From the sequence record NC_054913.1: a DNA stretch of 64,000 nucleotides. The stretch is one strand, 5' to 3'. The stretch comes from Escherichia phage F2. Each line of letters begins with the position of its first letter. The stretch's first letter is position 1. Under the pieces are notes generated by a model, which made no database searches, was not told the DNA's origin, and saw nothing but the letters and a program-made list of their open reading frames with translations. A program made the position numbers and the translations under genes. Positions 3 to 43,186 of this stretch are shown here, one piece after another.

Positions 3-470
3 ATTCGTCGTATGCTTCAAGAAGGTGAAGAATCATTACAAGAATATTTTAAAGAGTTTGAAAAAGAATTCCGTCAATTGAATTATATTAGCATCGCGTC
101 GGTATCTTCTGCGAATAACATTGCTAAATATGATGTAGGTGGATTCCCTGGTCCCAAATGTCCATTCCATATTCGTGGAATTCTGACGTATAACCGGGCT
201 ATCAAAGGTAATATCGATGCACCGCAAGTTGTAGAAGGTGAAAAAGTATATGTTCTGCCTTTACGTGAAGGAAACCCATTCGGTGATAAATGTATCGCAT
301 GGCCTTCTGGTACTGAAATCACAGATTTAATTAAAGACGACGTACTTCATTGGATGGACTACACTGTTCTCCTTGAGAAGACATTTATTAAACCACTTGA
401 AGGATTCACATCAGCAGCGAAACTCGATTATGAGAAGAAAGCATCTCTGTTCGATATGTTCGATTTTTGA
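3..470 (+). CDS. 43: DNA polymerase gp43, C-terminal fragment (5' end lies outside window)
   Basis: Translation ends ...KYDVGGFPGPKCPFHIRGILTYNRAIKG...KASLFDMFDF, matching the remembered T4 gp43 C-terminus including the clamp-binding tail; no upstream start within window. Confidence 0.85.
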   Translation: MRRMLQEGEESLQEYFKEFEKEFRQLNYISIASVSSANNIAKYDVGGFPGPKCPFHIRGILTYNRAIKGNIDAPQVVEGEKVYVLPLREGNPFGDKCIAWPSGTEITDLIKDDVLHWMDYTVLLEKTFIKPLEGFTSAAKLDYEKKASLFDMFDF

Positions 471-510
471 TATAATGTCATGGACGGTAAACTAATTAAA
501 TGAGAGAAAT

Positions 511-1146
511 ATGAAAACTACTCCTATTACTATCGCTATTGACGCAATCATAAAACAAGCTTCTTCTTTGGCCGCTATGGCCAAAGTAATTAGTCAAAAC
601 CCTGCTCGTTATAATGCTATTCTAGAAACTCTTCGACGCCCAGGACTTAGTAATTATGAAAGCCGAGTAATTATTACAGGTGTTGGTAAGAATGCTAATA
701 TTGCAACTAAAGCTTCTGAGACATTTGCTTCACTCGGTATCCCGAGTATGTACTTGAACACTGGACATTATTCTCACGGTGATGCAGGATTCATTGCGCC
801 TAATGATGTGTTGATTCATATTAGTCGTTCTGGTAAAACTGAAGAAATGATAGGCGTGGCTAAGCATCTTAAAATGATTCGTCCGAACGTCAAACAGATT
901 CTGTTGCATTGTAACCCGGACATTCCACAAGAATACGAAGCTCTTTTTGATTATACGTTCTGTACAGGCATCGCAGTAGAGGTTGATGAGAATTCTCTGG
1001 CTCCGACCATGTCCACTACATTGTTGTTAGCGCTTATCGATACGTTTGCTATCAACCTTTCGTCTGAACGTGGATTTACCTCTAATGACTTCCTTAAGTT
1101 CCACCCTGGCGGTGCACTAGGTGCCATGTTACGAGGCGAACAATGA
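511..1146 (+). CDS. SIS-domain sugar-phosphate isomerase, KdsD/GutQ-like (arabinose-5-phosphate isomerase type, no CBS domains)
   Basis: ITGVGKNANIATKASETFASLGIPSMYLNTGHYSHGDAGF...HISRSGKTEEM...LAPTMSTTLLLALIDTF...FHPGGALG aligns motif-for-motif with the KdsD SIS domain (GMGKSG..FASTGTPS..HGDLG..ISNSGES..LAPTSSTT..SHPGGALG). Confidence 0.8.
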   Translation: MKTTPITIAIDAIIKQASSLAAMAKVISQNPARYNAILETLRRPGLSNYESRVIITGVGKNANIATKASETFASLGIPSMYLNTGHYSHGDAGFIAPNDVLIHISRSGKTEEMIGVAKHLKMIRPNVKQILLHCNPDIPQEYEALFDYTFCTGIAVEVDENSLAPTMSTTLLLALIDTFAINLSSERGFTSNDFLKFHPGGALGAMLRGEQ

Positions 1147-1286
1147 AAGCAATAACAATAGGACTTTTACTATTGATGCTTGTCATGACTATCTACTGGA
1201 GCTTAACGGCTCCAGTAATGATTCCGACTCTTATAATCGGATGGATTATGATTGGACTACAAGCAAAGTATGAATGCTTTAACTAG
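1143..1286 (+). CDS. small hydrophobic membrane peptide (47 aa), below ORF-track cutoff
   Basis: ATG overlaps stop of upstream gene (ATGA); translation MKAITIGLLLLMLVMTIYWSLTAPVMIPTLIIGWIMIGLQAKYECFN predicts two TM helices; T4 has small membrane proteins (imm) near gene 43. Confidence 0.3.
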   Translation: MKAITIGLLLLMLVMTIYWSLTAPVMIPTLIIGWIMIGLQAKYECFN

Positions 1287-1327
1287 AATAGTGTACAATA
1301 CTCCTACTTACCAATGAGGACCACAAC

Positions 1328-3013
1328 ATGAAAAAAGCTGTTATTCTTGGTGCTGGACTGGCAACTCGTTTGTATCCAATAACGCATCATATTCCTAAGG
1401 TGCTTGTTAACTATAAACAAGACACTATTCTGAGCAATTTGTATACAATTTATTCTGACCTTGGCGCAGATGAAATTATTGTAGTAGTTCATTCAAAATT
1501 TGCTGAAACTGTTCGAGCTTATTGTGAGCAAGAAGGGTTCAATGTGACTATTCGTACAGTTGATGAAGCGTATGGTTCTGCTTATGCTCTTGCTAAATTG
1601 CACAAAGATTTAGACGGCCATAATGTAATTGTTAACTGGTGTGATATTATTCCTGATTTTGGTTCATGGTCTTGGAATGTTAACGCAATCTATGTTAAGG
1701 GTGACGAATGTCGATATAATTTCGACGGTGAAAATATCACTAATGTAGGTTCAACAGGTGGTAATGTTGTAGGAATTTATCAGTTCAAAGACTGGGAATT
1801 CTATATGGGTTCTACTGATGAGGAAATTCATGAATACTGCAAAGGACGTGATTTCGTAGAATTCCTTTACGGCAGCGCATTCAATAAATCAGAGCTTATG
1901 AATCTAATTGATTTAGGTGATATGCCTAAACTTGAAAAAGCTCATGAAGTTCGTGAACTTAATCGTAGTTTTAATGCAGTTGAAATTGGTGAAGAAACTG
2001 TAACTAAATTCGCATTAACCGAACAGGGCCGAGCTCTTCAGAAAGATGAGATTTCATGGTATCTTAAAGTGAAATCAGATTCAGTTCCTCAGTTAGTTTC
2101 TGTTAATGAAAATAACTTTGAAATGGAACGCATTAAAGGTAAGCCGGCATTTGAATATATTAAATCCAAATCAAGTCTTGCTCGTCCACAAATTGTTGAT
2201 GCAATTTTAGATGCACTGAAATTCAGCACAGACACTTATTTTGTAAGTCCTGAAACTGTTCGTCGTGATTTCACTAAAGAATTCTATACTAAAGTTATTG
2301 ATCGTTGTGAAAGTATTCAACCATTGATTGATTCATTTGGTAAAATCACACATGTGAACTACACTAAGATCGGACGTCTGAAGCCAATGTTGAAACAAGC
2401 TTTAGAACACCTTATTCGTTATCATAACCGTTCTCAGGGACAGTACTCTGTTATTCATGGTGACCCGAACTTCAGTAATACTATGATTACTGATAACGGC
2501 GAAGTCAAGTTTATCGACCCTCGTGGATATTTTGGTGAAACCAAGATTTACGGGCCAAAATTGTATGATGAAGCTAAAGTGCTTTACGCTGTTTCAGGTT
2601 ATGATGAATTCAACGCTAATCCGACTTGGGGACAGTTTACTATTGATGAAACAACTTGTAATGTGACTATTAACATCAATCCATTAGTTTACAAATATGG
2701 AAAGATGAGTTCGTTTAACGAGTATCATCATTTGGCAGTGGCAATTATCTGGATTGCATTAGGTGGTTATTTCAAGAATAATCCACTTAAAGCGGTAGCC
2801 GCATATTATAAAGGTATGGAACTTCTGACTAAGCAATTACGTAATATGGGCCGTGTACTTCAAGACGGCTCTATTAGTTATGACGTAGCAGAACCTGTAA
2901 CGGCTACTCTGATTACAAAAAATCCTGGTAAATGGGTACTAACTGATAAAGAAACTGGTGTTTCCTATCGTCCAATCGGTGGCGATATCACTCATCAATG
3001 GGAACGAATCTAA
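1328..3013 (+). CDS. bifunctional sugar-1-phosphate nucleotidyltransferase (N-term) / APH-type sugar kinase (C-term)
   Basis: N-terminus ILGAGLATRL is the GxGTRL signature of RmlA/GlmU-type NDP-sugar pyrophosphorylases; C-terminal region has Brenner motif VIHGDPNFSN and IDPRG typical of aminoglycoside/choline-kinase fold. Confidence 0.7.
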   Translation: MKKAVILGAGLATRLYPITHHIPKVLVNYKQDTILSNLYTIYSDLGADEIIVVVHSKFAETVRAYCEQEGFNVTIRTVDEAYGSAYALAKLHKDLDGHNVIVNWCDIIPDFGSWSWNVNAIYVKGDECRYNFDGENITNVGSTGGNVVGIYQFKDWEFYMGSTDEEIHEYCKGRDFVEFLYGSAFNKSELMNLIDLGDMPKLEKAHEVRELNRSFNAVEIGEETVTKFALTEQGRALQKDEISWYLKVKSDSVPQLVSVNENNFEMERIKGKPAFEYIKSKSSLARPQIVDAILDALKFSTDTYFVSPETVRRDFTKEFYTKVIDRCESIQPLIDSFGKITHVNYTKIGRLKPMLKQALEHLIRYHNRSQGQYSVIHGDPNFSNTMITDNGEVKFIDPRGYFGETKIYGPKLYDEAKVLYAVSGYDEFNANPTWGQFTIDETTCNVTININPLVYKYGKMSSFNEYHHLAVAIIWIALGGYFKNNPLKAVAAYYKGMELLTKQLRNMGRVLQDGSISYDVAEPVTATLITKNPGKWVLTDKETGVSYRPIGGDITHQWERI

Positions 3014-3399
3014 TGCACCGTGTAGAAAACATGCTTAATCTTTGTTTTGATGTCGACGATTGTATAACAGAGTGGAATAACAATCGTGATTACGTGAACT
3101 TCAAGCCAGACGTCGAAATGGTGACTGCCATTAATGCCCTGTATGATGCAGGGCATACCATAACGCTTTACACTGCTCGCGGTATGAAGTCAGTCGGTCC
3201 TGGTCGTATAGCAATTGACATTCTCCCAAGTCTGATTCAGAACTTGGCAAACATTGGATTGAAGTACCATAATTTGCTAACACATAAACCAGTATATGAT
3301 TGGATTATCGACGACAAAGCTATGCGTCCTGACGAATTCAAAGCTCTTATGAATAAAGGCGAATTCGAAACATTTAAATCATATAAACCGAATCTATAA
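3013..3399 (+). CDS. HAD-superfamily phosphatase (small, GmhB/KdsC-like)
   Basis: HAD motif I LCFDVDDCIT, motif II LYTAR, motif IV WIIDDK; start chosen at ATG overlapping upstream stop (TAATG). Confidence 0.6.
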   Translation: MHRVENMLNLCFDVDDCITEWNNNRDYVNFKPDVEMVTAINALYDAGHTITLYTARGMKSVGPGRIAIDILPSLIQNLANIGLKYHNLLTHKPVYDWIIDDKAMRPDEFKALMNKGEFETFKSYKPNL

Positions 3400-3446
3400 T
3401 AATTTAAGTAAGACCTGCAAAAACCATCGCATCAATTAACGGCGAG

Positions 3447-4616
3447 ATGCAAAAAATGAATACCTTTAAAATCGGAACGAATTTTGATTTAGCTCTTCTT
3501 GATAAAATCGTAGAGCTCAATAAAACTTATCCTAATAGCTTGATAAACGAAGTATACGGCTCTACAAGAGAAATGGCTTTTGTAGCAGCCAGACCTGATT
3601 TTAGGCTTCCTGACGTTGACAAAAAGATGTTAGAAGATTACGTTAAACGTTGTAACGAATTAGGTATTTGCTTTAACTATACACTCAACACGATAAATCC
3701 TGGTTCAAAAAGAGAACTAGTTGAGTGGAAGAAGAAAGCTATTCAGGACTATGTTCAGTATCTTTGGTCAATAGGCGTATGGCGTATTACTATCGCTAAC
3801 CCTGTTGTTATGGAAATTGTTCGTGAAGTCAATAAAGACATTGAGATTGAAGTTTCAACAATTCTACATGTCGATGCTGTAACTCAAATCAAATACTTGC
3901 ATGACCAATATAATATCAAAAAGGTCTGCTGTGGAATTCATAAGAACCGTTCAGTTTCTTTCCTGAAGCGTGCAGCAGAGTTTTGTAATAAGAACAATAT
4001 AATATTTGAAGTTCTTGTAAATGAGTTCTGTTCTAATGCTGGTAAAGGGTATACAACACATTGTAGCTATCGTGACTCTTGCTATATTTTCCATAGCACC
4101 GATGTTACAGTAGATGATGCCAAATCCTTAAATGGATATCCAATGCAGCACTGTATTAAAGCTCGTGATACAGACCCATTTAACTGGTTGAGAACTCGTT
4201 TTGTTCGTCCTCAAGATTTGAAACTTTATAATGATATTGGTATCACTCAATTCAAAGTTTCAGGACGTACAGGTAGCACCGACTACATTTTGAAAGTTCT
4301 TGAAGCTTACGCTTCTGAAAAGTTTGAAGGTAATTTGTTGGAATTGTGGAAGCCTTTAGAGACCATTTTCACTCTTGAAAATGAGACTGAGTTTTCACAT
4401 ACGGTAAATATTGAAACCTCTTTGTTAGATGGCTTTTTAGAAAAAAGGTGGTTCAAACATCCAGATTTCGATTGTGCTAATGAAATCTGCGGGACGACGT
4501 GTACATATTGTGAAAGATATTATAAACGTCAGTTATCTAAAAATGGGTTATCAGAAAACTCTATATCTATTATTGATATAACTAACTCTGATGACGCTTT
4601 GAGGTACCCAGAATGA
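3447..4616 (+). CDS. Cys-rich protein of unknown function (possible metal/Fe-S enzyme) in sugar module
   Basis: 389 aa ORF, consistent coding frame; cysteine clusters EFCSNAGKGYTTHCSYRDSCY and C-terminal CANEICGTTCTYC; weak resemblance to U32-type TIM-barrel enzymes, not confirmable by eye. Confidence 0.55.
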   Translation: MQKMNTFKIGTNFDLALLDKIVELNKTYPNSLINEVYGSTREMAFVAARPDFRLPDVDKKMLEDYVKRCNELGICFNYTLNTINPGSKRELVEWKKKAIQDYVQYLWSIGVWRITIANPVVMEIVREVNKDIEIEVSTILHVDAVTQIKYLHDQYNIKKVCCGIHKNRSVSFLKRAAEFCNKNNIIFEVLVNEFCSNAGKGYTTHCSYRDSCYIFHSTDVTVDDAKSLNGYPMQHCIKARDTDPFNWLRTRFVRPQDLKLYNDIGITQFKVSGRTGSTDYILKVLEAYASEKFEGNLLELWKPLETIFTLENETEFSHTVNIETSLLDGFLEKRWFKHPDFDCANEICGTTCTYCERYYKRQLSKNGLSENSISIIDITNSDDALRYPE

Positions 4617-4894
4617 TTTCTAGAAAAACTTTTAACCACCAACTTAACGAAGAGATTTTGACTATTAAAATTAACAGCAACGAACAAATTCTTAAAAAGG
4701 CCCTTATGGGCCTGTTTGAAACTAAAGCGGCTAAAGTGATTAAAGAACCTGTTCAATTGTAATACTACGCTGATGCATTTCTTCATAGTGTTCTTGGAAG
4801 TATCGATGCTGAAGCTTTACGTTATATCAACATCGCTAAGAAATTCAAATAAGCTTTATGAATTGAGTATATAATAAATTGTATTGAGGTAAAC

Positions 4895-5611
4895 ATGGGA
4901 AAACATAACACAATGAAATATATTAAAGCCGCAGATTTTCAATCCGCATTTAAAGCTGTCAATCGTGAAATTTTAGAAAACCCGGAATTCGTTACTGATT
5001 CTCGTATTGGACGTTGTAATGAAATTGGGTCTATGACAGTAGTTGTTGATACCCCTTCATCATTCAAAATGACAGACCCACGTATTAATCGCATCTCTTA
5101 TGAATATGCTGAAGATTTCTGGAAATTTATGATTTCTGGTGGTACTGATGCAGAAGAAGCATTTAAGGCATATCCTAACGTTGCTAAATTTATTTCTAAA
5201 CCTAAATCAGATGCTTTGCCTGCAAACTTCAACACTTTCTACGGTCCACGAATTGCGGCCCAGTTACCAACTCTTCTAAAAGAACTTAAAGAAAAACCTA
5301 ACTCTCGAAGAGTTGTGTTCCAAATTCTAGAAAGTTCTGATCAGGCTTTGCTTGATTCAGACGAAACACTTGAATATCCATGTACTGACTCAGTGACTTA
5401 TTATATTCGTGATGGTAAGCTTTATACCCACTGTCATATGCGTTCTCAGAACTGTGCTGTTGTTATGCAGTTGGATTTTTATCTCCAAGGAAAATTACTT
5501 CATTATATCGCTAACGAATGTGGTGTAGAAGTTGGTGATTATACTCATACCATGGTAAGTGCCCATGTGTTTGAACGTGATTTTGATTATGTTAAAGGAT
5601 TCCTTGTCTAA
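4895..5611 (+). CDS. 42: dCMP hydroxymethylase (thymidylate-synthase superfamily)
   Basis: NSRRVVFQI...YPCTDSVTYYIRDGKLYTHCHMRSQNCAVVMQLDF parallels TS catalytic region (DSRRII...PCHxxxQFYVxDGKL...RSxD) but is distinct from td at 53514; syntenic with T4 gene 42; SD GAGGT upstream. Confidence 0.75.
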   Translation: MGKHNTMKYIKAADFQSAFKAVNREILENPEFVTDSRIGRCNEIGSMTVVVDTPSSFKMTDPRINRISYEYAEDFWKFMISGGTDAEEAFKAYPNVAKFISKPKSDALPANFNTFYGPRIAAQLPTLLKELKEKPNSRRVVFQILESSDQALLDSDETLEYPCTDSVTYYIRDGKLYTHCHMRSQNCAVVMQLDFYLQGKLLHYIANECGVEVGDYTHTMVSAHVFERDFDYVKGFLV

Positions 5612-6510
5612 TGGCTATTTTCCGCGTACCTATCTTGAGTATGCGGTCTTATGAAACTGGACAGTATGCTATCCTTAAGGATGGCAACTTCCAACTTCAT
5701 TTGCACCGTGCTAATCCGGGTGATGTGATTACATATCCACGTAATGCATCTGATATTAAAGAATGCGAACGTCTTTTCCCAGAATTTAAGTTTGTTCCAT
5801 TATGGTATAAAGATAACGCATATAACACTCGTAAATATTTCTGGTCTGAAAATGAATTTGTGGTTGATTCATTAATTGATTATTATGATTGTGATTTTCT
5901 AATCACAGATATCACTGGATATGACGGCAATTTTGACGTAGAATTCAATTTCAATATCACTGCAGACCCTAATAAACCACGTTTTTATATTGACGAATTC
6001 TTAAAAACCGACATGTTGTCTGTTAATCGTTCACTTCAAACTACTGTGTTGAATGAACGTCAAAAAGAAGTGCTGGTTAACGCAGGTGCAGATGGTAATA
6101 AGATTATCGTAACGCAGAAAGTTATACGTCCTTCCATCATGCAGCGTCTTGTAGGTGATTTGGCTCCTATTCATCTAGATGGTATTTTTCATCCATTTCG
6201 AATTAGTGACCCGTGCTATCGTTTTGAACAAGTGGTTGAATGTGCAATTCAATTAGGTCAACCGCTTTATATAACCGATCCAAATAATAGCTTCGACAGA
6301 AATAAGTATCCTGAAGAAGCGCTGATTCGAATTTTTAAACCAACTAAAACTGAGTACTATCAAATTCTTAAAGGACGTCCGAAGATTCAATACTTCGAAA
6401 ATCCTGAAGAAGTATTCCATCCAGGTCTTGGCGAGTTCATCTACTTTAATGCTTTAATTTCTTCGCCGTATAATATACCTAAATATGAAGATGTCGTAAT
6501 CGAGGAATAA
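5611..6510 (+). CDS. hypothetical protein occupying the T4 beta-glucosyltransferase position
   Basis: 299 aa ORF, start overlaps stop of gene 42 (TAATG); no motif I recognise; not similar to remembered T4 beta-gt. Confidence 0.5.
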   Translation: MAIFRVPILSMRSYETGQYAILKDGNFQLHLHRANPGDVITYPRNASDIKECERLFPEFKFVPLWYKDNAYNTRKYFWSENEFVVDSLIDYYDCDFLITDITGYDGNFDVEFNFNITADPNKPRFYIDEFLKTDMLSVNRSLQTTVLNERQKEVLVNAGADGNKIIVTQKVIRPSIMQRLVGDLAPIHLDGIFHPFRISDPCYRFEQVVECAIQLGQPLYITDPNNSFDRNKYPEEALIRIFKPTKTEYYQILKGRPKIQYFENPEEVFHPGLGEFIYFNALISSPYNIPKYEDVVIEE

Positions 6511-6511
6511 A

Positions 6512-7060
6512 ATGGCTAAAATTATTTTAGTAGATGGCCCGGATAATGCTGGTAAAACAACTTTCATTAATGACATAATGGAAATTAGTGAAAGATATGT
6601 AAAGATTGATTTCCCTAAACGAACAGTTGATGGACGTTTCGATGTTAAGTCTCGAAATGAAGTTGGCTGTTTCGAAACGATGTTGAATTATTTAGACCCT
6701 ACTAAGATTTATCTGTTAGACCGTGGATATATTAGTAACTGGGTTTATGGACGTATTCGACAAGATGCGGACTCGGTTCTTGACGTTTATGAACAGGATT
6801 ATGTTCGTCTTTGCCAAAACCATGATGTGTTCACAATTATTTTAACACGTAACGAAATGACTGAAAGTTTTGAAGACGACCTTATTACTTTGTCTTCATT
6901 CAGGTTTAATACAGTCATTTCGTATTTTGAAGAGTTTGCAATTCATAACGAAATCCAAACGTATCAATTACTTAATCATGATGGTGCTAACAAAGTTATA
7001 GGATTTAATGCAAGCGAACGTAATAATTTGATTACAGAAATTATCAAATGGGCTCGTTAA
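6512..7060 (+). CDS. P-loop nucleoside/nucleotide kinase-like protein (thymidylate-kinase fold)
   Basis: Walker A ILVDGPDNAGKTT at N-terminus, DRGY lid-like segment; resembles dTMP kinase/dNK family layout. Confidence 0.55.
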   Translation: MAKIILVDGPDNAGKTTFINDIMEISERYVKIDFPKRTVDGRFDVKSRNEVGCFETMLNYLDPTKIYLLDRGYISNWVYGRIRQDADSVLDVYEQDYVRLCQNHDVFTIILTRNEMTESFEDDLITLSSFRFNTVISYFEEFAIHNEIQTYQLLNHDGANKVIGFNASERNNLITEIIKWAR

Positions 7061-7078
7061 GAGCCTGTTTAAAGTTTT

Positions 7079-7106
7079 AAATGCTGTATAACCCTTAGTA
7101 TATAAT
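7079..7106 (+). promoter_or_regulatory. candidate MotA-dependent middle promoter upstream of uvsX (MotA box AAATGCTGTA + TATAAT)
   Basis: aaatgctgta 12 nt upstream of tataat, about 55 nt before uvsX start; matches T4 middle promoter architecture. Confidence 0.4.
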
Positions 7107-7159
7107 CGTCTTATCTTTTAAACATGAGTAAAATATAATGATGCCTATGGAAAAATACA

Positions 7160-8332
7160 ATGTCTGATTTAAAATCTCGTCTGATTAAAGCTTCTACTTC
7201 TAAAATGACTGCAGACTTGACTAAGTCTAAGCTGTTTAATAATCGTGATGAAGTCCCTACTCGTATTCCGATGTTGAATATTGCATTAGGTGGTGCACTG
7301 AATGCTGGGTTGCAATCAGGCTTAACTATTTTTGCTGCTCCTTCTAAACACTTTAAAACGTTGTTTGGACTGACCATGGTTGCAGCATATATGAAGAAAT
7401 ATAAAGATGCAATTTGTTTGTTCTATGATTCGGAATTTGGTGCTTCAGAATCTTATTTTCGTTCAATGGGTGTTGATTTAGACCGTGTAGTTCATACTCC
7501 GATTCAATCTGTCGAACAACTTAAAGTTGATATGACTAATCAGCTTGACGCGATTGAACGCGGTGATAAAGTTATTATCTTTATCGATTCAATCGGTAAT
7601 ACTGCATCTAAGAAAGAAACTGAAGATGCATTGAACGAGAAAGTTGTAGGTGATATGTCTCGTGCTAAGGCACTTAAATCTCTGTTCCGCATTGTGACTC
7701 CTTATCTGACTATTAAAGATATTCCATGTGTTGCAATCAACCATACAGCAATGGAAATCGGTGGATTGTATCCTAAAGAGATTATGGGTGGTGGTACAGG
7801 TATTCTTTACTCTGCTAACACTGTATTCTTTATCTCTAAACGTCAGGTTAAAGAAGGTACAGAATTGACCGGTTATGACTTCACGTTGAAAGCAGAAAAA
7901 TCTCGCACCGTTAAAGAAAAATCTACTTTCCCAATCACGGTTAATTTCGATGGTGGTATTGACCCATTCAGTGGCTTGTTAGAAATGGCAACTGAAATCG
8001 GTTTTGTAGTTAAGCCTAAAGCCGGGTGGTATGCTCGAGAATTCCTTGACGAAGAAACAGGCGAAATGATTCGTGAAGAGAAATCATGGCGTGCTAAAGC
8101 TACTGATTGTGTAGAATTCTGGGGACCGTTGTTTAAACACAAACCTTTCCGAGATGCAATTGAAACTAAATATAAACTAGGTGCTATCTCTTCTATTAAA
8201 GAAGTTGATGATGCTGTTAACGACCTTATTAATTGCAAAGCAACAACTAAAGTTCCGGTTAAAACTTCTGATGCTCCTTCTGCAGCAGATATAGAAAACG
8301 ACCTTGACGAAATGGAAGATTTCGATGAATAA
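7160..8332 (+). CDS. uvsX: UvsX recombinase (RecA-like)
   Basis: 390 aa; sequence MSDLKSRLIKAS...IPMLNIALGG...DSEFGAS... matches T4 UvsX throughout. Confidence 0.95.
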   Translation: MSDLKSRLIKASTSKMTADLTKSKLFNNRDEVPTRIPMLNIALGGALNAGLQSGLTIFAAPSKHFKTLFGLTMVAAYMKKYKDAICLFYDSEFGASESYFRSMGVDLDRVVHTPIQSVEQLKVDMTNQLDAIERGDKVIIFIDSIGNTASKKETEDALNEKVVGDMSRAKALKSLFRIVTPYLTIKDIPCVAINHTAMEIGGLYPKEIMGGGTGILYSANTVFFISKRQVKEGTELTGYDFTLKAEKSRTVKEKSTFPITVNFDGGIDPFSGLLEMATEIGFVVKPKAGWYAREFLDEETGEMIREEKSWRAKATDCVEFWGPLFKHKPFRDAIETKYKLGAISSIKEVDDAVNDLINCKATTKVPVKTSDAPSAADIENDLDEMEDFDE

Positions 8333-8666
8333 TCTCGATGATTTAAATCTAGAAATCGTTGATGAATCCCCTTCTTCGGAAGGGGAAGACATTCGCAAAG
8401 AACGAGTGTTTAATGAATCTCTTAAAATTATCCGTTCAGCAATGGAAAATGTCATTCAAGAGATTCTGATTACACTTGAAGATGGTTCTCATCATATAGT
8501 CTATATTACAAAACTAGACTGGGTTGATGGTAAAATCGTAATGGACTTTGCAGTTCTTGACCAAGACAGAAAAGCAGAACTTGCACCACATGTTGAAAAA
8601 TGTGTTACAATGCAAGTACAACAAGCTTTTAATGAACGGACCAAGAAAAAATTTAAATTCTTTTAA
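8325..8666 (+). CDS. 40: gp40 head vertex assembly chaperone (by position/size)
   Basis: Small ORF between uvsX and 41 as in T4; start ATG overlaps uvsX stop. Confidence 0.55.
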   Translation: MNNLDDLNLEIVDESPSSEGEDIRKERVFNESLKIIRSAMENVIQEILITLEDGSHHIVYITKLDWVDGKIVMDFAVLDQDRKAELAPHVEKCVTMQVQQAFNERTKKKFKFF

Positions 8667-12156: not shown

Positions 12157-12450
12157 ATGAAAAAGTTATCATTGGCAGCAATCTTACTTGCGGTATCATG
12201 TGCACCAGCTCCAGTTACAGCAGGTTATGATAAAGACCTCTGTGAGTGGTCAATGACTGCAAATCAAGAAGATGTTGAACAACAAATCTTCTCTGATATC
12301 ATGAACATCACTAAACGAGACCGTCCTAATATGGTTAATAAAGTTGTTGAACAACTTAAGTCTGGTGGTATTATGCAGTACAATTATGTTTTGTATTGTG
12401 ACCCTAATTTCGATAACAAAGATATCGTAACCGAAATCACAGGTGAATAA
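12157..12450 (+). CDS. sp: secreted periplasmic protein, spackle-like (superinfection exclusion/lysozyme inhibitor) by size and position
   Basis: 97 aa with cleavable signal peptide MKKLSLAAILLAVSCAPAPVTA; T4 sp is a 97-aa periplasmic protein in the 41-61 interval. Confidence 0.5.
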   Translation: MKKLSLAAILLAVSCAPAPVTAGYDKDLCEWSMTANQEDVEQQIFSDIMNITKRDRPNMVNKVVEQLKSGGIMQYNYVLYCDPNFDNKDIVTEITGE

Positions 12451-12451
12451 T

Positions 12452-13102
12452 ATGATTTATTACATGCACAAAAACGCACCATTTAAATATGGTAAATTTC
12501 CTAATGCACAATGTTATAATATAACGCCGAATGAAAATAATAACGGATACCGTATTGGTGTAATTTTTGTAATTGTTAAAGATAACGAAATCGTTGCCTG
12601 GGCAGATTTTAAAGGTACAACATATGATGTTAATCCTGTGCCTTTCACATATTACAATATAATGGATTTGGCATATGATTATAATTGGTTTACTCATGAC
12701 ACGTTGGCTCATATTGAAGGTGTAGGATTTGACATCTCTTATTCTAGCTATTCATTATGTCCTATGAGCCGAGCTCACGGTAAAGATGTATCATATCTTT
12801 CAATTCGGAAACGTGTAAACTTCAAACGTAGTACAGAGTATGTTGGTGGACTCTTTGTTAAAGATAATAAAATAACCCGTATTAGTTATCCTTTAAGTGT
12901 AGGTCAAAAAGATGTTGATGTTGATTTAGACTTAACTGAAAGTAACATTAATCGTATTGCTTCTGTATATTTTGATATCGATGAAAAAATTGTAGTGTGT
13001 GGATACGAATTACCACCTGAAGAAAAGGCTGAAACAATTGAAGTCGAATTAGAAATTTCTGTTGATGACCAAATATTTAACGCATTTATGAATCGAGGTT
13101 AA
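12452..13102 (+). CDS. hypothetical protein
   Basis: ORF with SD AGGTGA; no recognised motif. Confidence 0.5.
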   Translation: MIYYMHKNAPFKYGKFPNAQCYNITPNENNNGYRIGVIFVIVKDNEIVAWADFKGTTYDVNPVPFTYYNIMDLAYDYNWFTHDTLAHIEGVGFDISYSSYSLCPMSRAHGKDVSYLSIRKRVNFKRSTEYVGGLFVKDNKITRISYPLSVGQKDVDVDLDLTESNINRIASVYFDIDEKIVVCGYELPPEEKAETIEVELEISVDDQIFNAFMNRG

Positions 13103-15133: not shown

Positions 15134-15655
15134 ATGGCACACTTTAACGAATGTTCACAACTTATTTCTGGTGTTGATAAAGCAGAAGAAGCTTATTTTA
15201 ATGCCCTGATTCACGAAGATAAAGACCCGCTGCAGGTAATGCTTGATATGCAGAAATCTTTACAGGTTCGTCTGGCAAATGACAAGCCTGAACATAACAA
15301 ACATCCTGATGAATTGGCTACTGCTGGTGATGTTGTTGATTGGCTGCGTAATCAGAAAGATTATATTGATGATGAATTCCGTGAACTGCTGACTTCACTT
15401 GGTGGTATGAGCAATGGTGAAAAGGCCGCTAGCTCTGTATGGAAGCCGTGGAAGGCCCAGCATGCTGAATATCGAAATCGTCGTATCGATGAACTGTCTC
15501 CTGAAGACCAGCTTGAAATTAAATTCGAGATGATTGATATTCTGCATTTCGTTCTAAATATGTTCCAAGGTCTAGGACTTTCTGCTGAAGAAATCTTCAA
15601 ACTGTATTACCTGAAAAACCAACACAACTTTGAACGCCAGGATAATGGTTACTAA
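15134..15655 (+). CDS. 56: dCTPase/dUTPase gp56 (MazG-like NTP pyrophosphatase)
   Basis: MAHFNECSQLISGVDKAEE...DPLQVMLDMQ...ETAGDVVDWLRNQKDYIDDEFRELLTSLG... matches T4 gp56; SD AAAGGA. Confidence 0.85.
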   Translation: MAHFNECSQLISGVDKAEEAYFNALIHEDKDPLQVMLDMQKSLQVRLANDKPEHNKHPDELATAGDVVDWLRNQKDYIDDEFRELLTSLGGMSNGEKAASSVWKPWKAQHAEYRNRRIDELSPEDQLEIKFEMIDILHFVLNMFQGLGLSAEEIFKLYYLKNQHNFERQDNGY

Positions 15656-26247: not shown

Positions 26248-27348
26248 ATGAAAGTTATGTTTATCCCATCTCGTGCAGTCCCGTTTAATCCTGACCGTGT
26301 ACAAGGTGGCCTTGAAGCAGTACATTTAAATGTGTTGAAATATCTTGTGTCCATCGGCGCTGATATTGATTATATCGGCTTTGATAATGACACGTTTGGT
26401 GATTGGAAAGTTACACACCATCCTGTTGGTCATCTGACTAAATTCAGTCTAGGTATGAGTTATACTATGGCTCGTAAGATTGTTGAACTAGCCGGCATCC
26501 ATGAATACGATTTTGTTGTTACTATGGAACCGACTAAACTAACCGTTCAGGCAATTAAAGACGCAGGTCTCTCTAAAGTTCATAAGAATTTTATGGCAAC
26601 ACCATTTGAACCGGTATCTCGTGGCATTGTTCAAATTTGGGACCAGACTATTCAAATTCATAAGAATGGTGGTAAGAGTTATGCTCCTACTAAAGCCTTC
26701 CGTGAATTTGAACGCAAATATTGTTATATGACTTCAGGTCTGACTGACAAAATTGATTATGATTATTGGCGAGCAAATCCGTTGTTTGAAGCCGAAGATT
26801 ATCCGGTTATTTGTTTGAATGAGAAACCTGAAGTTCTTCCGGCGACTGATCTGATTATTAGTGCACAACGTTATGACACTAAAATGCGTCGCACTGATGT
26901 TGCTCTTGAAGCAATTAAAGCACTAGGCGAAAATGGTGTAGGATACTGTCCAAGCAAATGGGCACCACCAGCTAAATATCCTGTTATTATTGATGCTCCA
27001 CACAGTGAAATCATGGAACGTCTTAAAACAGCTAAAGCACTTATTAATACTTGTCCTGACACAGGTACAGTAGAGAATAGTTCTATTGAAGCCATCTCTA
27101 AAGGTGTCCCTGTAATCCAGTTAGTTTTTAAGGATTATCCTCATGCGACATTTGAATACGACCCAGATACTGTGCGTGTAGAAATTGATTCCTCTACTCC
27201 TAAGAAAGAAGTAGTTGCGCTTTACACAAAAGCTGTATTAGAATTCACTGATACATACGAAGCTCGAGTTAAACGTGCTGAAGCAGTATGGAAGAAGTAT
27301 AACCGAGATGCAGTTGTTGCGATGTGGGATAAAATCTTCACAGCGTAA
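26248..27348 (+). CDS. GT-B-like glycosyltransferase candidate (possible DNA sugar transferase)
   Basis: N-terminal VQGGLEAVHLNVLKYLVSIGADI and C-terminal TGTVENSSIEAISKGVPVIQ resemble GT4-family GG motif and E-x7-E donor-binding motif; located between 39 and rIIA. Confidence 0.55.
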   Translation: MKVMFIPSRAVPFNPDRVQGGLEAVHLNVLKYLVSIGADIDYIGFDNDTFGDWKVTHHPVGHLTKFSLGMSYTMARKIVELAGIHEYDFVVTMEPTKLTVQAIKDAGLSKVHKNFMATPFEPVSRGIVQIWDQTIQIHKNGGKSYAPTKAFREFERKYCYMTSGLTDKIDYDYWRANPLFEAEDYPVICLNEKPEVLPATDLIISAQRYDTKMRRTDVALEAIKALGENGVGYCPSKWAPPAKYPVIIDAPHSEIMERLKTAKALINTCPDTGTVENSSIEAISKGVPVIQLVFKDYPHATFEYDPDTVRVEIDSSTPKKEVVALYTKAVLEFTDTYEARVKRAEAVWKKYNRDAVVAMWDKIFTA

Positions 27349-27440
27349 ATCCTGAATAGCCTGAGGCACTATTACACATAAGATGATAGATTATATGGTC
27401 TTTAGTAATAGTGCCCTAGGAATCTACTGAAGAGAATATT

Positions 27441-27641
27441 ATGAGAACATATAACGTGGACTTGGAACTTTTTGATAAAGCTGTGCTCCGGGAATTCCGG
27501 CTTATCCAAAGATTTTTTGATATCGAATCAGCTGAAGCCTTTAAAGAACGCTTTAAGGAAATTCGATATAAAATACAAACCGATACAGCTACTAAAGAAG
27601 AACTTCTTGAAGTAGCAGAAATTTTTAAACGTAACTTGTGA
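27441..27641 (+). CDS. hypothetical protein (rIIA.1 position)
   Basis: 66 aa ORF upstream of rIIA. Confidence 0.45.
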   Translation: MRTYNVDLELFDKAVLREFRLIQRFFDIESAEAFKERFKEIRYKIQTDTATKEELLEVAEIFKRNL

Positions 27642-27653
27642 TGAGAGAAAAAT

Positions 27654-29867
27654 ATGATTATTGAAACGGCTAAAGAAACGATTATTGGTTCAGGTGGTAA
27701 GAGCACAGCATTTACTATTCAAGGCAATAGCAAAGTTTATAAGATTTTGTCTAATGACCTTTATACAAACAAAGAATTGGCTTGTGTACGTGAATTAATC
27801 ACAAACTGTATCGATGGTCAAATTCTTAATGGTTGCACTGATAAGTTTATTGTTCAGGCTCCAGGTCGTTTAGACCCACGTTTTGTAGTTCGAGACTTTG
27901 GTCCTGGTATGAGTGATTTCACCATTCGAGGTAATGACGAAGAGCCAGGAATCTATAACTCATATTTCGCTTCAACTAAAACATCGAGTAACGATTTCAT
28001 TGGTGGATTCGGACTCGGCTCTAAAGCTCCACTAGCGTATACCGATACGTTTAACCTTACGTCTTATCACAACGGTGAAGTTCGTGGTTATGTAATTTAT
28101 CAAGATGACAGTGGTCCACAGATTAAGCCGACCTTCGTAGATAAGATGGGCCCTGATGACCGGACCGGCGTTGAAGTAGTTGTGCCTGTTAACCCAGAAG
28201 ATTTTGAAAAGTTCGCATCCGAAATTGCTTATGTTATGCGTCCTCTCGGCGATATTGCAGAAGTTCGTGGTGTTAAAGATATCAAATACTTCCCGGAATT
28301 CGATGATGTATATTTGGCCAAGGAAGCTCCATGGGGTGAACGTGGTAATATCATGGCTGTTTATGGTGGTATTGTATATCCAATCGGAAGTGTTATTAAA
28401 GAACAAACATGGATGATGACGCGATGCACTACAGCTTATATTAAATTCCCTATGGGTGAACTAGATGTAGCCCCGTCTCGTGAAGCATTGTCATTTGATA
28501 AACGTACAGTAGCAAATATCCATAAACGTGTTGCAGAAATCGATGCAAAATTATTTGCTGAAGACTCTAAGAAATGGATTGATTGTGAATATCCACGTCA
28601 TGTATTCCGTGAAATCGATTCTCTTGGTTACTCTGCTCGTAGATACATGGAAAAAGCCGGTTCTAATATTGAATCACTGAAATATTCTAAAGAACAGCTA
28701 ACTTATTCTGAGTTGTACAAACGTTTTAAAATGGGTCCTGAATGGTGCAACCTTGGTGTTGTATACGATATCGTTTCAGATCCACGACTTCGTCGTATTC
28801 GTGAAAGCGGAAGCTCGTCTTCAACTATTTCAATTAATAGCCTGCTAGGTATTAGTCGTAAGCATATTGATATTGTTATTGACGATGTGAAAGGCCGCGT
28901 ACCAATGATGCGTGCTCTGAACGATGCTTTGACTTCCACCGATGCATCAACACTCGTTGATAAGGTTCCTTCCGGATGGGGTAGTAGCGTATTATTCGTT
29001 AATCCGGAAGATGAAGTTGCAATGAAACTTCTAGAACGATTAAAGGTTATTTTCGCTGGTGATAGCCTTAAATTTTATAAGACCTCTGAAATTCTTGCAT
29101 TAGTTAAACCGTGGATTGAAGTTAAAGAACGTTCATCACAGCCTCGTCCTAAATCACCGAGTGCTCATCGGTTCTTTAAGAATGAAAACGATGTTTGGGT
29201 ATCAGAAGATCTCTTTATTCCGGCCGGTAAAGCTGATGAGATTCAAGGTTATGTTGTAATTCGTAATCGTTCTAACGCTGAATGTCTTGACGCAGATAAA
29301 GGTTGGTTGAACTATGATTCTAGTTTCTTGACTCGTATTGCCGATTTATCAGGTATTAAAGAGTTCACTGTAGTCCGTCCACAGATTGCTAAGAAAGTTC
29401 GTAAACTTGGTGAAGTAGAATGCTTGTTCGAAAAATCAATTAATGACTATATTACGCTAATTGATAAAGTGGATTATGATGAGTATGTATCGCCAAGTCG
29501 TAGAGCACAGCCTTATTTGAATCATATTACTCGTAATGAAGAGCTTAACTTCCTTAGTAAGTATTTTAGCTCTAAGAACAAAGAAATCAGTAAAGATTTT
29601 GCAAAACTTTCAACAGTAAATAATCGTTGGGGATGGAATCGATTCGCAGGTGCTGATAATAGAGACCTGAACAGGAAGTTAGAATTGTGTGCTAAAATTT
29701 TCGATAAGCTTAAAGATAATGCTTACGATAATGATGATAAAATGGTTATTGAATTTGAAACCAATTATCATATTGTGTCAGAATACATGGGACGACGTGG
29801 TACTCTTTCTAAAGAACAGGTCGCTCAAATCGTTAAATTCATGAAGGCCGTGGAAGCGGCCAAATAA
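27654..29867 (+). CDS. rIIA: rIIA protein
   Basis: MIIETAKETIIGSGGKSTAF...LYTNKE...RELITNCID...GRLDPRFVVRDFGPGMSDF...IGGFGLGSKAP matches T4 rIIA. Confidence 0.9.
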   Translation: MIIETAKETIIGSGGKSTAFTIQGNSKVYKILSNDLYTNKELACVRELITNCIDGQILNGCTDKFIVQAPGRLDPRFVVRDFGPGMSDFTIRGNDEEPGIYNSYFASTKTSSNDFIGGFGLGSKAPLAYTDTFNLTSYHNGEVRGYVIYQDDSGPQIKPTFVDKMGPDDRTGVEVVVPVNPEDFEKFASEIAYVMRPLGDIAEVRGVKDIKYFPEFDDVYLAKEAPWGERGNIMAVYGGIVYPIGSVIKEQTWMMTRCTTAYIKFPMGELDVAPSREALSFDKRTVANIHKRVAEIDAKLFAEDSKKWIDCEYPRHVFREIDSLGYSARRYMEKAGSNIESLKYSKEQLTYSELYKRFKMGPEWCNLGVVYDIVSDPRLRRIRESGSSSSTISINSLLGISRKHIDIVIDDVKGRVPMMRALNDALTSTDASTLVDKVPSGWGSSVLFVNPEDEVAMKLLERLKVIFAGDSLKFYKTSEILALVKPWIEVKERSSQPRPKSPSAHRFFKNENDVWVSEDLFIPAGKADEIQGYVVIRNRSNAECLDADKGWLNYDSSFLTRIADLSGIKEFTVVRPQIAKKVRKLGEVECLFEKSINDYITLIDKVDYDEYVSPSRRAQPYLNHITRNEELNFLSKYFSSKNKEISKDFAKLSTVNNRWGWNRFAGADNRDLNRKLELCAKIFDKLKDNAYDNDDKMVIEFETNYHIVSEYMGRRGTLSKEQVAQIVKFMKAVEAAK

Positions 29868-38247: not shown

Positions 38248-38256
38248 AATACCTCC

Positions 38257-38808: not shown

Positions 38809-38815
38809 ATTTAGA

Positions 38816-38831
38816 AGGGGCCGAAGCCCCT
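38816..38831 (-). promoter_or_regulatory. mRNA hairpin between Shine-Dalgarno and AUG of gene 38
   Basis: On - strand: ...taaGGAGaggggcttcggccccttctaaatATG; the only SD-like GGAG is 22 nt from the ATG with a 6-bp GC stem/UUCG loop in between. Confidence 0.45.
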
Positions 38832-38835
38832 CTCC

Positions 38836-42450: not shown

Positions 42451-42458
42451 AAGTCCTC

Positions 42459-43124: not shown

Positions 43125-43149
43125 AGTTGTCTCCTTATATGTATACCAT

Positions 43150-43157
43150 ATTTATAC
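43150..43157 (-). promoter_or_regulatory. late promoter TATAAATA for genes 36-37-38-t
   Basis: Reverse complement of tatttata; followed by SD AAGGAGA and gene 36 ATG. Confidence 0.5.
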
Positions 43158-43182: not shown

Positions 43183-43186
43183 AAAT

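What the first reader, a model, noticed from the sequence alone, without database searches (positions are those of the whole stretch)
4895..5611. hmC synthesis retained but no glucosyltransferase at the canonical beta-gt locus
A divergent dCMP hydroxymethylase (42) and dCTPase (56, 15134-15655) are present, so the DNA likely contains hmC. No beta-gt-like ORF is recognisable between 42 and uvsX, and the alpha-gt locus (between genes 47 and 55 in T4) is outside this window. This fits a non-glucose hmC decoration, which would affect sensitivity to host restriction systems such as McrBC and glucosyl-hmC-specific nucleases.
Basis: partly seen in the sequence, partly recalled or inferred. Interest (0 to 1): 0.55.

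Follow-up and report, generated by a model that had tools for sequence, protein, structure and literature searches.

The report
Arabinosyl-5-hydroxycytosine DNA modification gene cluster
This is the already described gene set by which RB69-like coliphages replace cytosine with arabinose-decorated 5-hydroxycytosine: the flagged gene makes 5-hydroxy-dCMP rather than hydroxymethyl-dCMP, and a sugar transferase does sit where T4 keeps beta-gt.

Summary
The window is a Mosigvirus (RB69-like T-even phage) genome segment. The ORF at 4895-5611 is real and belongs to the thymidylate synthase superfamily. It is only 25% identical to T4 gp42. It is 99% identical to RB69 gp48 and to the phage HY126 enzyme (PDB 9IQC), which published work shows to be flavin/O2-dependent dCMP 5-hydroxylases. 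It carries their diagnostic Asn at the E. coli ThyA Asp169 position.

So hmC is not retained: the base is 5-hydroxycytosine. No a-gt or b-gt homologue exists in the window or in the deposited 170-kb record of a 95-98% identical relative. The b-gt slot is not empty, though. ORF 5611-6510 models confidently as a GT-B glycosyltransferase (predicted arabinosyltransferase 1), followed by a Tmk-like kinase. UDP-arabinose genes lie upstream, and a second glycosyltransferase (near-identical to PDB 9IQZ) lies at 26248-27348.

This system is already known (2018-2026 papers).

One side lead may be new. The adjacent U32 Fe-S protein (3447-4616) sits next to the same transferase in unrelated phages that show no ThyA-type hydroxylase nearby, and it co-occurs with DAHP synthase. 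That suggests an O2-independent cytosine hydroxylase.

The parts
511..1146 (+). SIS-domain arabinose-5-phosphate isomerase (RB69 gp55 homologue, 99.1% identical). Predicted to convert ribulose-5-P to arabinose-5-P.
   Evidence: Pfam SIS E 1.7e-10. PHROG 5670 'arabinose 5-phosphate isomerase' E 2.3e-116. Identity to RB69 gp55. Role as proposed in PMC13326640.
1328..3013 (+). Bifunctional sugar-1-phosphate nucleotidyltransferase (N-terminal) and kinase (C-terminal). It is the homologue of RB69 gp52:53 and HY126 AfhE and makes UDP-arabinofuranose. It is intact here, whereas the RB69 record splits it.
   Evidence: Pfam NTP_transferase E 8.5e-10 at residues 3-99, plus weak kinase-family hits at residues 308-409. 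NCBIfam sugar nucleotidyltransferase hits. Published AfhE activity is reported second-hand in PMC13326640.
2998..3399 (+). HAD-like sugar phosphatase (RB69 gp51 / HY126 AfhF homologue). Converts arabinose-1,5-bisphosphate to arabinose-1-phosphate.
   Evidence: NCBIfam TIGR01689 capsule biosynthesis phosphatase E 4.6e-13. PHROG 1238 E 8e-43. 98.4% identical to RB69 gp51. Role.
3447..4616 (+). U32-family Fe-S protein (RB69 gp50 homologue, 99.2% identical). Its role is unassigned in the papers I could read. My inference: a prephenate-dependent, O2-independent C5 hydroxylase of cytosine.
   Evidence: Pfam Peptidase_U32 E 6.4e-11. Ten invariant Cys across 22 homologues down to 47% identity. C195, C206, C212 and C236 line up with the UbiU 4Fe-4S ligands C169, C176, C193 and C232.
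4613..4762 (+). Small conserved ORF (49 aa) of unknown function between the U32 gene and the hydroxylase gene.
   Evidence: PHROG 8601 E 7e-29. Annotated as a hypothetical protein in relatives.
4895..5611 (+). The flagged ORF. It is a dCMP 5-hydroxylase (5hodCMP synthase), a thymidylate-synthase-fold enzyme that uses a flavin and O2. It is not a dCMP hydroxymethylase.
   Evidence: PDB 9IQC/9IR2/9IQU E 2.9e-161 with 3 substitutions; 9IQC matches the HY126 sequence. 235/237 identical to RB69 gp48. Signature residues E160, C163, N186, D194 correspond to E. coli ThyA L143E, C146, D169N, N177D. Experiments on the orthologues are in PMC13326640.
5611..6510 (+). GT-B fold glycosyltransferase and predicted arabinosyltransferase 1 (RB69 gp46:47 homologue, intact here). 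It would add the first arabinose to the 5-OH. Its start codon overlaps the hydroxylase stop codon (TAATG).
6512..7060 (+). Thymidylate-kinase-like P-loop nucleotide kinase (RB69 gp45 homologue). My inference: a kinase for the modified dNMP.
   Evidence: PHROG 761 'thymidylate kinase' E 4e-45. Weak NCBIfam dTMP kinase hit. 98.4% identical to RB69 gp45. Tmk-like kinases recur beside U32, or beside U32 plus the transferase, in 11 of 35 unrelated viral loci.
15134..15655 (+). gp56 dCTPase/dUTPase. It removes dCTP so that unmodified C is not incorporated and supplies dCMP.
   Evidence: 71.7% identical to T4 gp56 over 173 aa, E 1e-82. Pfam dUTPase_2.
26248..27348 (+). Second glycosyltransferase (RB69 gp3 homologue), located between rIIA and the topoisomerase large-subunit gene. 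Predicted arabinosyltransferase 2, adding the second arabinose.
   Evidence: PDB 9IQZ/9IR0 'phage HY126 glycosyltransferase' E 4.7e-251 over residues 1-366. Role proposed in PMC13326640 and PMC13390438.
53514..54374 (+). Canonical thymidylate synthase (td). It is not part of the modification pathway and is listed as the internal control showing the normal ThyA signature.
   Evidence: Pfam Thymidylat_synt E 5.2e-98, full length. Residues L153, C156, D179, N187 match E. coli L143, C146, D169, N177.

Best explanation
The window carries the Mosigvirus pathway that replaces every cytosine in virion DNA with mono- and di-arabinosylated 5-hydroxycytosine.

Steps shown experimentally on near-identical orthologues in the literature:
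- gp56 dCTPase (15134-15655) converts dCTP to dCMP.
- The ThyA-fold enzyme at 4895-5611 hydroxylates dCMP at C5, using a flavin and O2, to give 5-hydroxy-dCMP.
- The phage dNMP kinase, which lies outside the window, phosphorylates 5-hydroxy-dCMP so that the polymerase can incorporate it.
- According to He et al. as reported second-hand in PMC13326640, the bifunctional kinase/pyrophosphorylase (1328-3013) and the HAD phosphatase (2998-3399) make UDP-arabinofuranose from arabinose-5-phosphate.

Steps inferred from fold and synteny:
- The SIS isomerase (511-1146) supplies arabinose-5-phosphate from ribulose-5-phosphate.
- The GT-B enzyme at 5611-6510, in the exact slot of T4 beta-gt, puts the first arabinose on the 5-OH.
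- The GT at 26248-27348 adds the second arabinose.
For: - Identity of the phage: 99.2% nucleotide identity to Mosigvirus phage PNJ-6 over 3400-8400. 149 phage records cover at least 80% of that stretch.
- Near-identity of the flagged ORF to characterised enzymes: PDB 9IQC E 2.9e-161; the same substitutions are seen against the HY126 genome; 235/237 identical to RB69 gp48.
- Published experiments: RB69 gp48 plus dNMP kinase put 5hodC into E. coli DNA, 18O2 labels it, and the enzyme binds FMN. RB69 DNA contains mono- and di-arabinosyl-5hoC by LC-MS and NMR (PMC13326640). Mosigvirus NP shows the same modification (PMC13390438).
- Signature: N186 at the D169 position. This is diagnostic of 5hodCMP synthases, and nine further D169N enzymes were validated. 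T4 gp42 and both canonical thymidylate synthases keep Asp.
- GT-B fold of the 299-aa ORF.
- Second GT near-identical to the HY126 GT crystal structure.
- Sugar-pathway genes.
- No a-gt, b-gt or second gp42-like gene in the PNJ-6 record.
Against: - Nothing in the sequence contradicts this explanation.
- No chemistry was done on this particular phage.
- The first arabinosyltransferase activity has not been reconstituted for any orthologue. Individual GTs gave no activity on 5hoC DNA in vitro. It is therefore unknown whether the first sugar goes on at the nucleotide stage or on DNA.
- The roles of the Tmk-like kinase and of the U32 protein are unassigned.
- I could not read He et al. 2026 (Nat Chem Biol) or Mahler et al. 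2025 (Cell Host Microbe) directly.
Confidence: 0.93

Rival explanations
1. The first reader's reading, which was also the original 2018 view of RB69. The ORF is a divergent dCMP hydroxymethylase, the DNA contains hmC, and a non-glucose sugar (arabinose) is attached through the hydroxymethyl group.
For: The ORF aligns to T4 gp42 (E 2e-10). It shares the catalytic Cys, the Asp that selects dCMP and the acidic residue at the L143 position. Thomas et al. 2018 (PMC6024577) reported arabinosyl-hmC for RB69. Many GenBank records annotate the gene as dCMP hydroxymethylase.
Against: Later NMR, LC-MS and 18O2 work shows that the sugar is ether-linked directly to C5 and that the enzyme makes 5hodCMP. PMC13390438 states that the 2018 assignment was erroneous. 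The folate-contacting Asp169 equivalent is Asn here. The enzyme binds a flavin.
Confidence: 0.04
2. The ORF is a second thymidylate synthase or dCMP methylase, and the DNA cytosines are unmodified or methylated.
For: The Pfam and NCBIfam hits are to thymidylate synthase models. Several relatives annotate the gene as 'thymidylate synthase'.
Against: All NCBIfam scores are far below the family cut-offs, for example 50 bits against 108. A bona fide td gene is present at 53514-54374. N177D predicts a dCMP substrate and L143E predicts a non-methyl product. A dCTPase and two glycosyltransferases are present.
Confidence: 0.01
3. The modified base is left naked because the 299-aa ORF is not a DNA glycosyltransferase. 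On this view it is, for example, a UDP-sugar epimerase-like enzyme.
For: UDP-GlcNAc 2-epimerases are among the top Foldseek hits. No in vitro activity has been shown for this protein family.
Confidence: 0.02

Closest known systems
RB69 gp48 / phage HY126 5-hydroxy-dCMP synthase (PDB 9IQC, 9IR2, 9IQU)
   Same: 99% identical in sequence, same length (238 aa), same D169N/N177D/L143E signature, same gene neighbourhood.
   Different: Three to four conservative substitutions only: S17T, T126A, V238D against RB69; E31Q, E87K, T126A, V238D against HY126.
T4 gp42 dCMP hydroxymethylase
   Same: Thymidylate-synthase fold, catalytic Cys, Asp selecting dCMP, an acidic residue at the L143 position, and the same map position between gene 43 and uvsX.
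   Different: Only 24.8% identical. Asn replaces the folate-contacting Asp. In the orthologues the cofactor is a flavin with O2 rather than methylene-THF, and the product is 5-OH rather than 5-CH2OH.
T4 beta-glucosyltransferase (and alpha-glucosyltransferase)
Acinetobacter phage DLP3 arabinosylation cluster (gp76-gp83)
   Same: Same ThyA-type hydroxylase, Tmk-like kinase, first GT, HAD phosphatase, bifunctional NTP-transferase/kinase and isomerase.
   Different: DLP3 has two extra GTs and makes tri-arabinosyl-5hoC. No U32 match was found in the 57 Acinetobacter phage records that carry the first GT.
U32-family O2-independent hydroxylases (RlhA, TrhP, UbiU/UbiV)
   Same: The neighbouring ORF 3447-4616 has the U32 domain and four invariant Cys that line up with the UbiU 4Fe-4S ligands. 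RlhA is required for 5-hydroxycytidine formation in rRNA and needs prephenate. The phage gene co-occurs with DAHP synthase.
   Different: Very distant in sequence: the best NCBIfam hit is UbiU at 19 bits against a cut-off of 440, and hhalign probability is low. It has an extra C-terminal CX4CX3CX2C motif. Its substrate and activity are untested.

Membership tests
T4 gp42-type dCMP hydroxymethylase | Thymidylate-synthase fold with a catalytic Cys (T4 C148) and an Asp selecting dCMP (T4 D179) | tested here: met
   C163 and D194 align with E. coli C146 and N177 and with the T4 Cys and Asp. Pfam Thymidylat_synt E 2.2e-15.
T4 gp42-type dCMP hydroxymethylase | Conserved Asp at the E. coli ThyA D169 position (conserved in folate-dependent members) | tested here: not met
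   The window protein has N186. T4 gp42, E. coli ThyA and the window's own td all have Asp.
T4 gp42-type dCMP hydroxymethylase | Product is 5-hydroxymethyl-dCMP, made with methylene-THF | not testable with these tools
   Published assays on the 99%-identical RB69 gp48 and on the HY126 enzyme give 5-hydroxy-dCMP with O2 and a flavin (PMC13326640).
5hodCMP synthase (flavin-dependent ThyA homologue) | D169N signature together with N177D and an acidic residue at position 143 | tested here: met
   N186, D194 and E160. The signature is defined in PMC13326640.
5hodCMP synthase (flavin-dependent ThyA homologue) | Close sequence relationship to an experimentally characterised member | tested here: met
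   235/237 identical to RB69 gp48. PDB 9IQC (HY126) E 2.9e-161.
T4 beta-glucosyltransferase family (GT63) | Detectable sequence or closest-fold similarity to T4 BGT | tested here: not met
T4 alpha-glucosyltransferase family | Sequence similarity to T4 AGT | tested here: not met
GT-B fold nucleotide-sugar glycosyltransferases | Two Rossmann-like domains superposable on known GT-B enzymes | tested here: met
GT-B fold nucleotide-sugar glycosyltransferases | Transfer of arabinose from UDP-arabinofuranose to 5hoC | not testable with these tools
   Not reconstituted in the literature I could read.
U32 Fe-S hydroxylases (for ORF 3447-4616) | Peptidase_U32 domain above the Pfam gathering score | tested here: met
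   42.4 bits against a cut-off of 22.4, E 6.4e-11.
U32 Fe-S hydroxylases (for ORF 3447-4616) | Conserved four-Cys 4Fe-4S motif inside the U32 domain | tested here: met
   C195, C206, C212 and C236 are invariant in 22 homologues. By direct reading, the flanking motifs 'EV(L/F)...C' and 'YPxxC' match UbiU C169 and C232. The hhalign match itself is weak.
U32 Fe-S hydroxylases (for ORF 3447-4616) | Prephenate-dependent, O2-independent hydroxylation | not testable with these tools
   Only indirect evidence: co-occurrence with DAHP synthase in about 190 of 220 phage records, and DAHP synthase adjacent in 6 of 35 divergent viral loci.

The most novel reading that the evidence does not exclude
The U32-family Fe-S protein 280 bp upstream of the flagged ORF (3447-4616) may be a second cytosine C5 hydroxylase. 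It would be prephenate-dependent and O2-independent, and would let these enteric phages make 5-hydroxycytosine DNA without oxygen, much as nrdDG backs up nrdAB. The phage's own DAHP synthase would feed the prephenate supply.

Support:
- Four invariant Cys match the UbiU 4Fe-4S ligands.
- Family precedent: RlhA is required for ho5C formation in rRNA and needs prephenate.
- The protein is at least 80% identical in all 220 phage records that carry it. In Shewanella phage Thanatos it is 82% identical while the neighbouring GT is 48%.
- It is absent from the 57 Acinetobacter phage records that carry the GT; Acinetobacter is a strict aerobe.
- About 190 of 220 U32-positive records also carry an AroFGH-type DAHP synthase. 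At most about 4 of roughly 127 GT-positive, U32-negative records do.
- In 35 divergent viral loci of non-T4-like context (several with DNA polymerase III alpha-type polymerase genes), the U32 homologue lies within 6 kb of a homologue of the 5611-6510 GT in 20 loci and is directly adjacent in many. A Tmk-like kinase is nearby in 11 loci and a DAHP synthase in 6.
- Only one of the 35 loci has a ThyA-like gene within 10 kb, and that gene has the canonical thymidylate synthase signature.

Caveats:
- Dhakaviruses such as JS98 infect E. coli without the U32 gene.
- A hydroxylase gene could lie elsewhere in the metagenomic genomes.
- Two key papers could not be read, so the idea may already be addressed.
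Probability: 0.4. Interest if true: 0.7.

Novelty: already known. Interest (0 to 1): 0.25.

Why it matters
For the finding as written, the value is corrective. Automated annotation and sequence intuition both call this gene a dCMP hydroxymethylase or thymidylate synthase. In fact it is a folate-fold enzyme repurposed as a flavin oxygenase, and the DNA base is 5-hydroxycytosine with arabinose ether-linked to the ring. That determines which restriction, CRISPR and type IV systems the phage evades or triggers. It also matters for choosing and engineering Mosigvirus therapy phages.

The Asn at the ThyA-169 position is a one-residue test that would stop the same misreading elsewhere.

The unassigned U32 protein beside the gene raises a directly testable question: how does an O2-requiring modification pathway work in phages of gut bacteria? 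If the U32 protein is the anaerobic hydroxylase, it would be the first U32 enzyme with a small soluble substrate. That would help the long-stalled biochemistry of prephenate-dependent hydroxylation.

Tried and rejected
- Sequence searches of the 299-aa ORF against Pfam, NCBIfam and PDB sequences found nothing. Only structure prediction and fold search identified it.
- tblastn with T4 a-gt and b-gt against the window and the PNJ-6 record found only chance matches. I therefore rejected a displaced canonical glucosyltransferase.
- A second gp42-like gene elsewhere in the genome was rejected: T4 gp42 hits only the flagged ORF.
- The sigma-70 promoter and terminator scan over 300-7300 gave 23 sites against 25.4 expected, so it was uninformative.
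- Profile comparison of the U32 family with E. coli UbiU gave only a weak partial alignment, probability 3.8%. The Cys correspondence rests on direct reading of the flanking motifs.
- A simple 'U32 is present only when the host is a facultative anaerobe' rule was rejected as strict, because Dhakavirus JS98 (an E. coli phage) lacks both the U32 gene and the isomerase.
- The U32 gene as part of UDP-arabinose synthesis (the BASEL annotation) looks unlikely. In nine divergent loci it pairs with the GT, and in most of them with a Tmk-like kinase, with no arabinose-pathway gene nearby. DLP3 also makes arabinose without it.
- He et al. 2026 and Mahler et al. 2025 are not in the held library.

Full report
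**What the window is.** The stretch 3400-8400 is 99.2% identical to Escherichia phage PNJ-6. It is 98% identical to many other coliphages, and 149 phage records cover at least 80% of it. A close relative (308Ecol101PP) and PNJ-6 are classified as Straboviridae, Tevenvirinae, Mosigvirus, the genus of RB69. Most of the window aligns to PNJ-6 92560 down to 28862 at 95-98.5% identity, with a few more divergent segments. On the + strand the window runs from the end of the DNA polymerase gene (43) through uvsX, 40, 41, 61 and 56 to rIIA/rIIB. It continues through the tail-fibre genes to td, frd and nrdAB.

**Check of the observation.**
- An ATG ORF occupies exactly 4895-5611, 238 aa. It matches Pfam Thymidylat_synt at E 2.2e-15.
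- T4 gp42, taken from the T4 record, aligns to it at only 24.8% identity, E 2e-10. 'Divergent 42' is a fair description of the sequence.
- The dCTPase at 15134-15655 is 71.7% identical to T4 gp56.
- T4 beta- and alpha-glucosyltransferase proteins find nothing better than E=1.4. This holds for the window and for the deposited 170,429-bp PNJ-6 record, labelled 'partial genome'.
- The 47-55 interval of PNJ-6 holds only four small ORFs.
- The interval between this ORF and uvsX is not empty, however. It holds a 299-aa ORF (5611-6510) and a 182-aa ORF (6512-7060).

**What the flagged ORF is.**
- Against PDB sequences, the best matches are 9IQC/9IR2/9IQU at E 2.9e-161, with three substitutions.
- The same substitutions separate the window protein from the phage HY126 genome copy, so 9IQC is the HY126 enzyme.
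- The next-best PDB matches are ordinary thymidylate synthases and the CMP hydroxymethylase MilA, at about E 1e-11.
- The protein is 235/237 identical to RB69 gp48.
- Lee et al. (NAR 2026, PMC13326640) showed the following. RB69 gp48 plus the phage dNMP kinase put 5-hydroxy-dC into E. coli DNA. The oxygen comes from 18O2. The purified enzyme carries FMN. RB69 virion DNA has cytosine fully replaced by mono- and di-arabinosylated 5-hydroxycytosine with a direct ether link to C5.
- They cite He et al. (Nat Chem Biol 2026) for a flavin-bound crystal structure of the HY126 enzyme and for in vitro reconstitution.
- They also defined a diagnostic residue: Asn at the position of E. coli ThyA Asp169. 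Nine further D169N enzymes were validated.
- In my alignment, the window protein has E160, C163, N186 and D194 at E. coli positions 143, 146, 169 and 177. T4 gp42 has D, C, D, D. E. coli ThyA and the window's own td (53514-54374, Pfam E 5e-98) have L, C, D, N.
- The ORF therefore passes the test for a 5hodCMP synthase and fails one defining feature of a folate-dependent hydroxymethylase.
- An independent paper on another Mosigvirus (phage NP) finds the same 5-ara-dC and 5-ara-ara-dC. It states that the 2018 'arabinosyl-hmC' assignment for RB69 was erroneous (PMC13390438).

**What sits at the beta-gt locus.**
- ORF 5611-6510 starts on the last base of the hydroxylase stop codon (TAATG).
- It has no Pfam, NCBIfam or PDB sequence match. 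It has 138 homologues (E <= 1e-3), all unnamed, in T4-like phages of Edwardsiella, Yersinia, Acinetobacter, Serratia, Providencia and Pseudomonas and in metagenomes.
- With a 38-sequence alignment, AlphaFold gives pLDDT 94.7 and pTM 0.89.
- Foldseek against the PDB gives MshA, UDP-GlcNAc 2-epimerases and GT4 enzymes at about E 5e-6.
- This reproduces the published result for the RB69 orthologue gp46:47, which the RB69 record splits through a sequencing error. Here the gene is intact: it is 97.8% and 100% identical to the two RB69 pieces.
- It is the proposed first arabinosyltransferase. Its activity has not been reconstituted.
- ORF 6512-7060 is a thymidylate-kinase-like P-loop protein (PHROG 761).

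**The rest of the pathway in the window.**
- Upstream lie a SIS arabinose-5-phosphate isomerase (511-1146) and a bifunctional nucleotidyltransferase/kinase (1328-3013).
- Next come a HAD phosphatase (2998-3399) and a U32-family protein (3447-4616).
- All those compared with RB69 are 98-99% identical to their RB69 counterparts.
- According, the HY126 homologues AfhE and AfhF make UDP-arabinofuranose from arabinose-5-phosphate.
- A second glycosyltransferase at 26248-27348, between rIIA and the topoisomerase gene, matches PDB 9IQZ/9IR0 ('phage HY126 glycosyltransferase') at E 4.7e-251. It corresponds to RB69 gp3, the proposed second arabinosyltransferase.

**Verdict on the finding.**
- The headline is wrong on two counts: hmC synthesis is not retained, and the beta-gt slot holds a glycosyltransferase of another family.
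- The system has been described in 2018, 2025 and 2026 papers, so the finding is already known.

**A side lead that may not be known.** In the papers I could read, the U32 protein (RB69 gp50) appears only in a table as 'sugar or heterocycle reductase', without discussion. BASEL phage records call it a UDP-arabinose biosynthesis enzyme. Known U32 proteins are 4Fe-4S proteins required for O2-independent, prephenate-dependent hydroxylations. RlhA is required for 5-hydroxycytidine formation in 23S rRNA.

Evidence gathered here:
- *Cys motifs.* Across 22 homologues down to 47% identity, ten Cys are invariant. C195, C206, C212 and C236 sit in motifs matching UbiU ligands C169, C176, C193 and C232: 'EVLVNEFC' against 'EVFAFGSLC', and 'YPMQHC' against 'YPTLC'. 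The hhalign match itself is weak.
- *Distribution.* The protein occurs in 220 phage records, always at 80% identity or more. The neighbouring GT occurs in 347 records and drops to 46-48% identity. Acinetobacter phages (57 records with the GT) show no U32 match.
- *Link to DAHP synthase.* Relatives carry a bona fide AroFGH-type DAHP synthase (TIGR00034, 427 bits). It lies just beyond the window's 3' end, at PNJ-6 27234-28226. It occurs in 211 records. A concatenated query shows a union of 241 records, so about 190 records hold both genes.
- *Divergent viral loci.* I examined 35 loci from metagenomes and IMG/VR with 37-58% U32 identity and non-T4-like context; several carry DNA polymerase III alpha-type polymerase genes.
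  - The U32 gene lies within 6 kb of a homologue of the 5611-6510 GT in 20 loci. It is often immediately downstream with overlapping codons.
  - It is near a Tmk-like kinase in 11 loci, AfhE/SIS homologues in 10-12 loci, and a DAHP synthase of a different class in 6 loci.
  - Only one locus has a ThyA-like gene within 10 kb, and that gene has the canonical L/C/D/N thymidylate synthase signature.
- *Inference.* In those phages the U32 protein occupies the slot of the base hydroxylase next to the transferase. I infer that it is an alternative, O2-independent cytosine hydroxylase, and that Mosigviruses carry both routes.
- *Against.* Dhakavirus JS98 infects E. coli without it. The ThyA-type enzyme alone suffices aerobically. 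Complete genomes of the metagenomic phages were not available. The two papers most likely to have tested this could not be read. I put the idea at about 0.4.

Noticed in passing
window 3447-4616: The U32-family protein has ten invariant Cys, four of them matching the UbiU 4Fe-4S ligands. It is at least 80% identical in all 220 phage records that carry it. It shows no match in the Acinetobacter phage records that share the rest of the cluster. It may be an O2-independent cytosine hydroxylase (see novel case).
   Followed up: yes
just beyond the window's 3' end; PNJ-6 (L003) 27234-28226: Close relatives encode a bona fide AroFGH-type DAHP synthase next to dCMP deaminase. About 190 of the 220 phage records with the U32 gene also carry it. 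In six unrelated viral loci (L009, L029, L040, L042, L043, L044) a DAHP synthase lies within 2 kb of the U32 homologue. This fits a phage-boosted prephenate supply.
   Followed up: partly
window 6512-7060; loci L008, L011-L014, L029, L032, L036, L041, L045, L053: The Tmk-like kinase travels with the GT and/or the U32 gene in unrelated phages; L014 also has a dUTPase_2-like gene. The combination looks like a minimal 'deplete, modify, re-phosphorylate, glycosylate' module. The kinase's substrate is unassigned, even though gp1 dNMP kinase already accepts 5hodCMP.
   Followed up: partly
window 4850-4894: By direct reading, TAAGCTTTA at 4850-4858, an 11-nt spacer and TATAAT at 4870-4875 resemble a T4 MotA-dependent middle promoter. 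A GAGG Shine-Dalgarno lies at 4886-4889, before the ATG at 4895. The sigma-70 scan tool does not cover this promoter type and was uninformative.
   Followed up: no
window 5609-5613 and 6508-6514: The hydroxylase stop codon and the glycosyltransferase start codon overlap (TAATG). The kinase ORF starts 2 nt after the GT stop. This suggests translational coupling of the three genes.
   Followed up: no
window 1328-3013 and 5611-6510 versus RB69 (L060): Both genes that the RB69 reference record splits into two ORFs (52/53 and 46/47) are single intact ORFs here. This agrees with the published statement that the RB69 splits are sequencing errors.
   Followed up: yes
window 12443-13102: This ORF matches Pfam AdfA (anti-DarT factor A) at E 2.9e-118 over its full length. 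It is a counter-defence gene unrelated to the finding.
   Followed up: no
L007 (phage JS98, Dhakavirus) 2781-7894: JS98 keeps the hydroxylase, GT, Tmk-like kinase, AfhE-like and AfhF-like genes but lacks both the U32 gene and the SIS isomerase. A 166-aa unknown ORF sits in their place. Both genes are therefore dispensable accessories in an E. coli phage.
   Followed up: partly
window 38000-48000: GC skew turns negative exactly where the long tail-fibre genes lie on the minus strand (ORFs 38836-42450 and 44323-48198). This is ordinary strand-linked skew.
   Followed up: no
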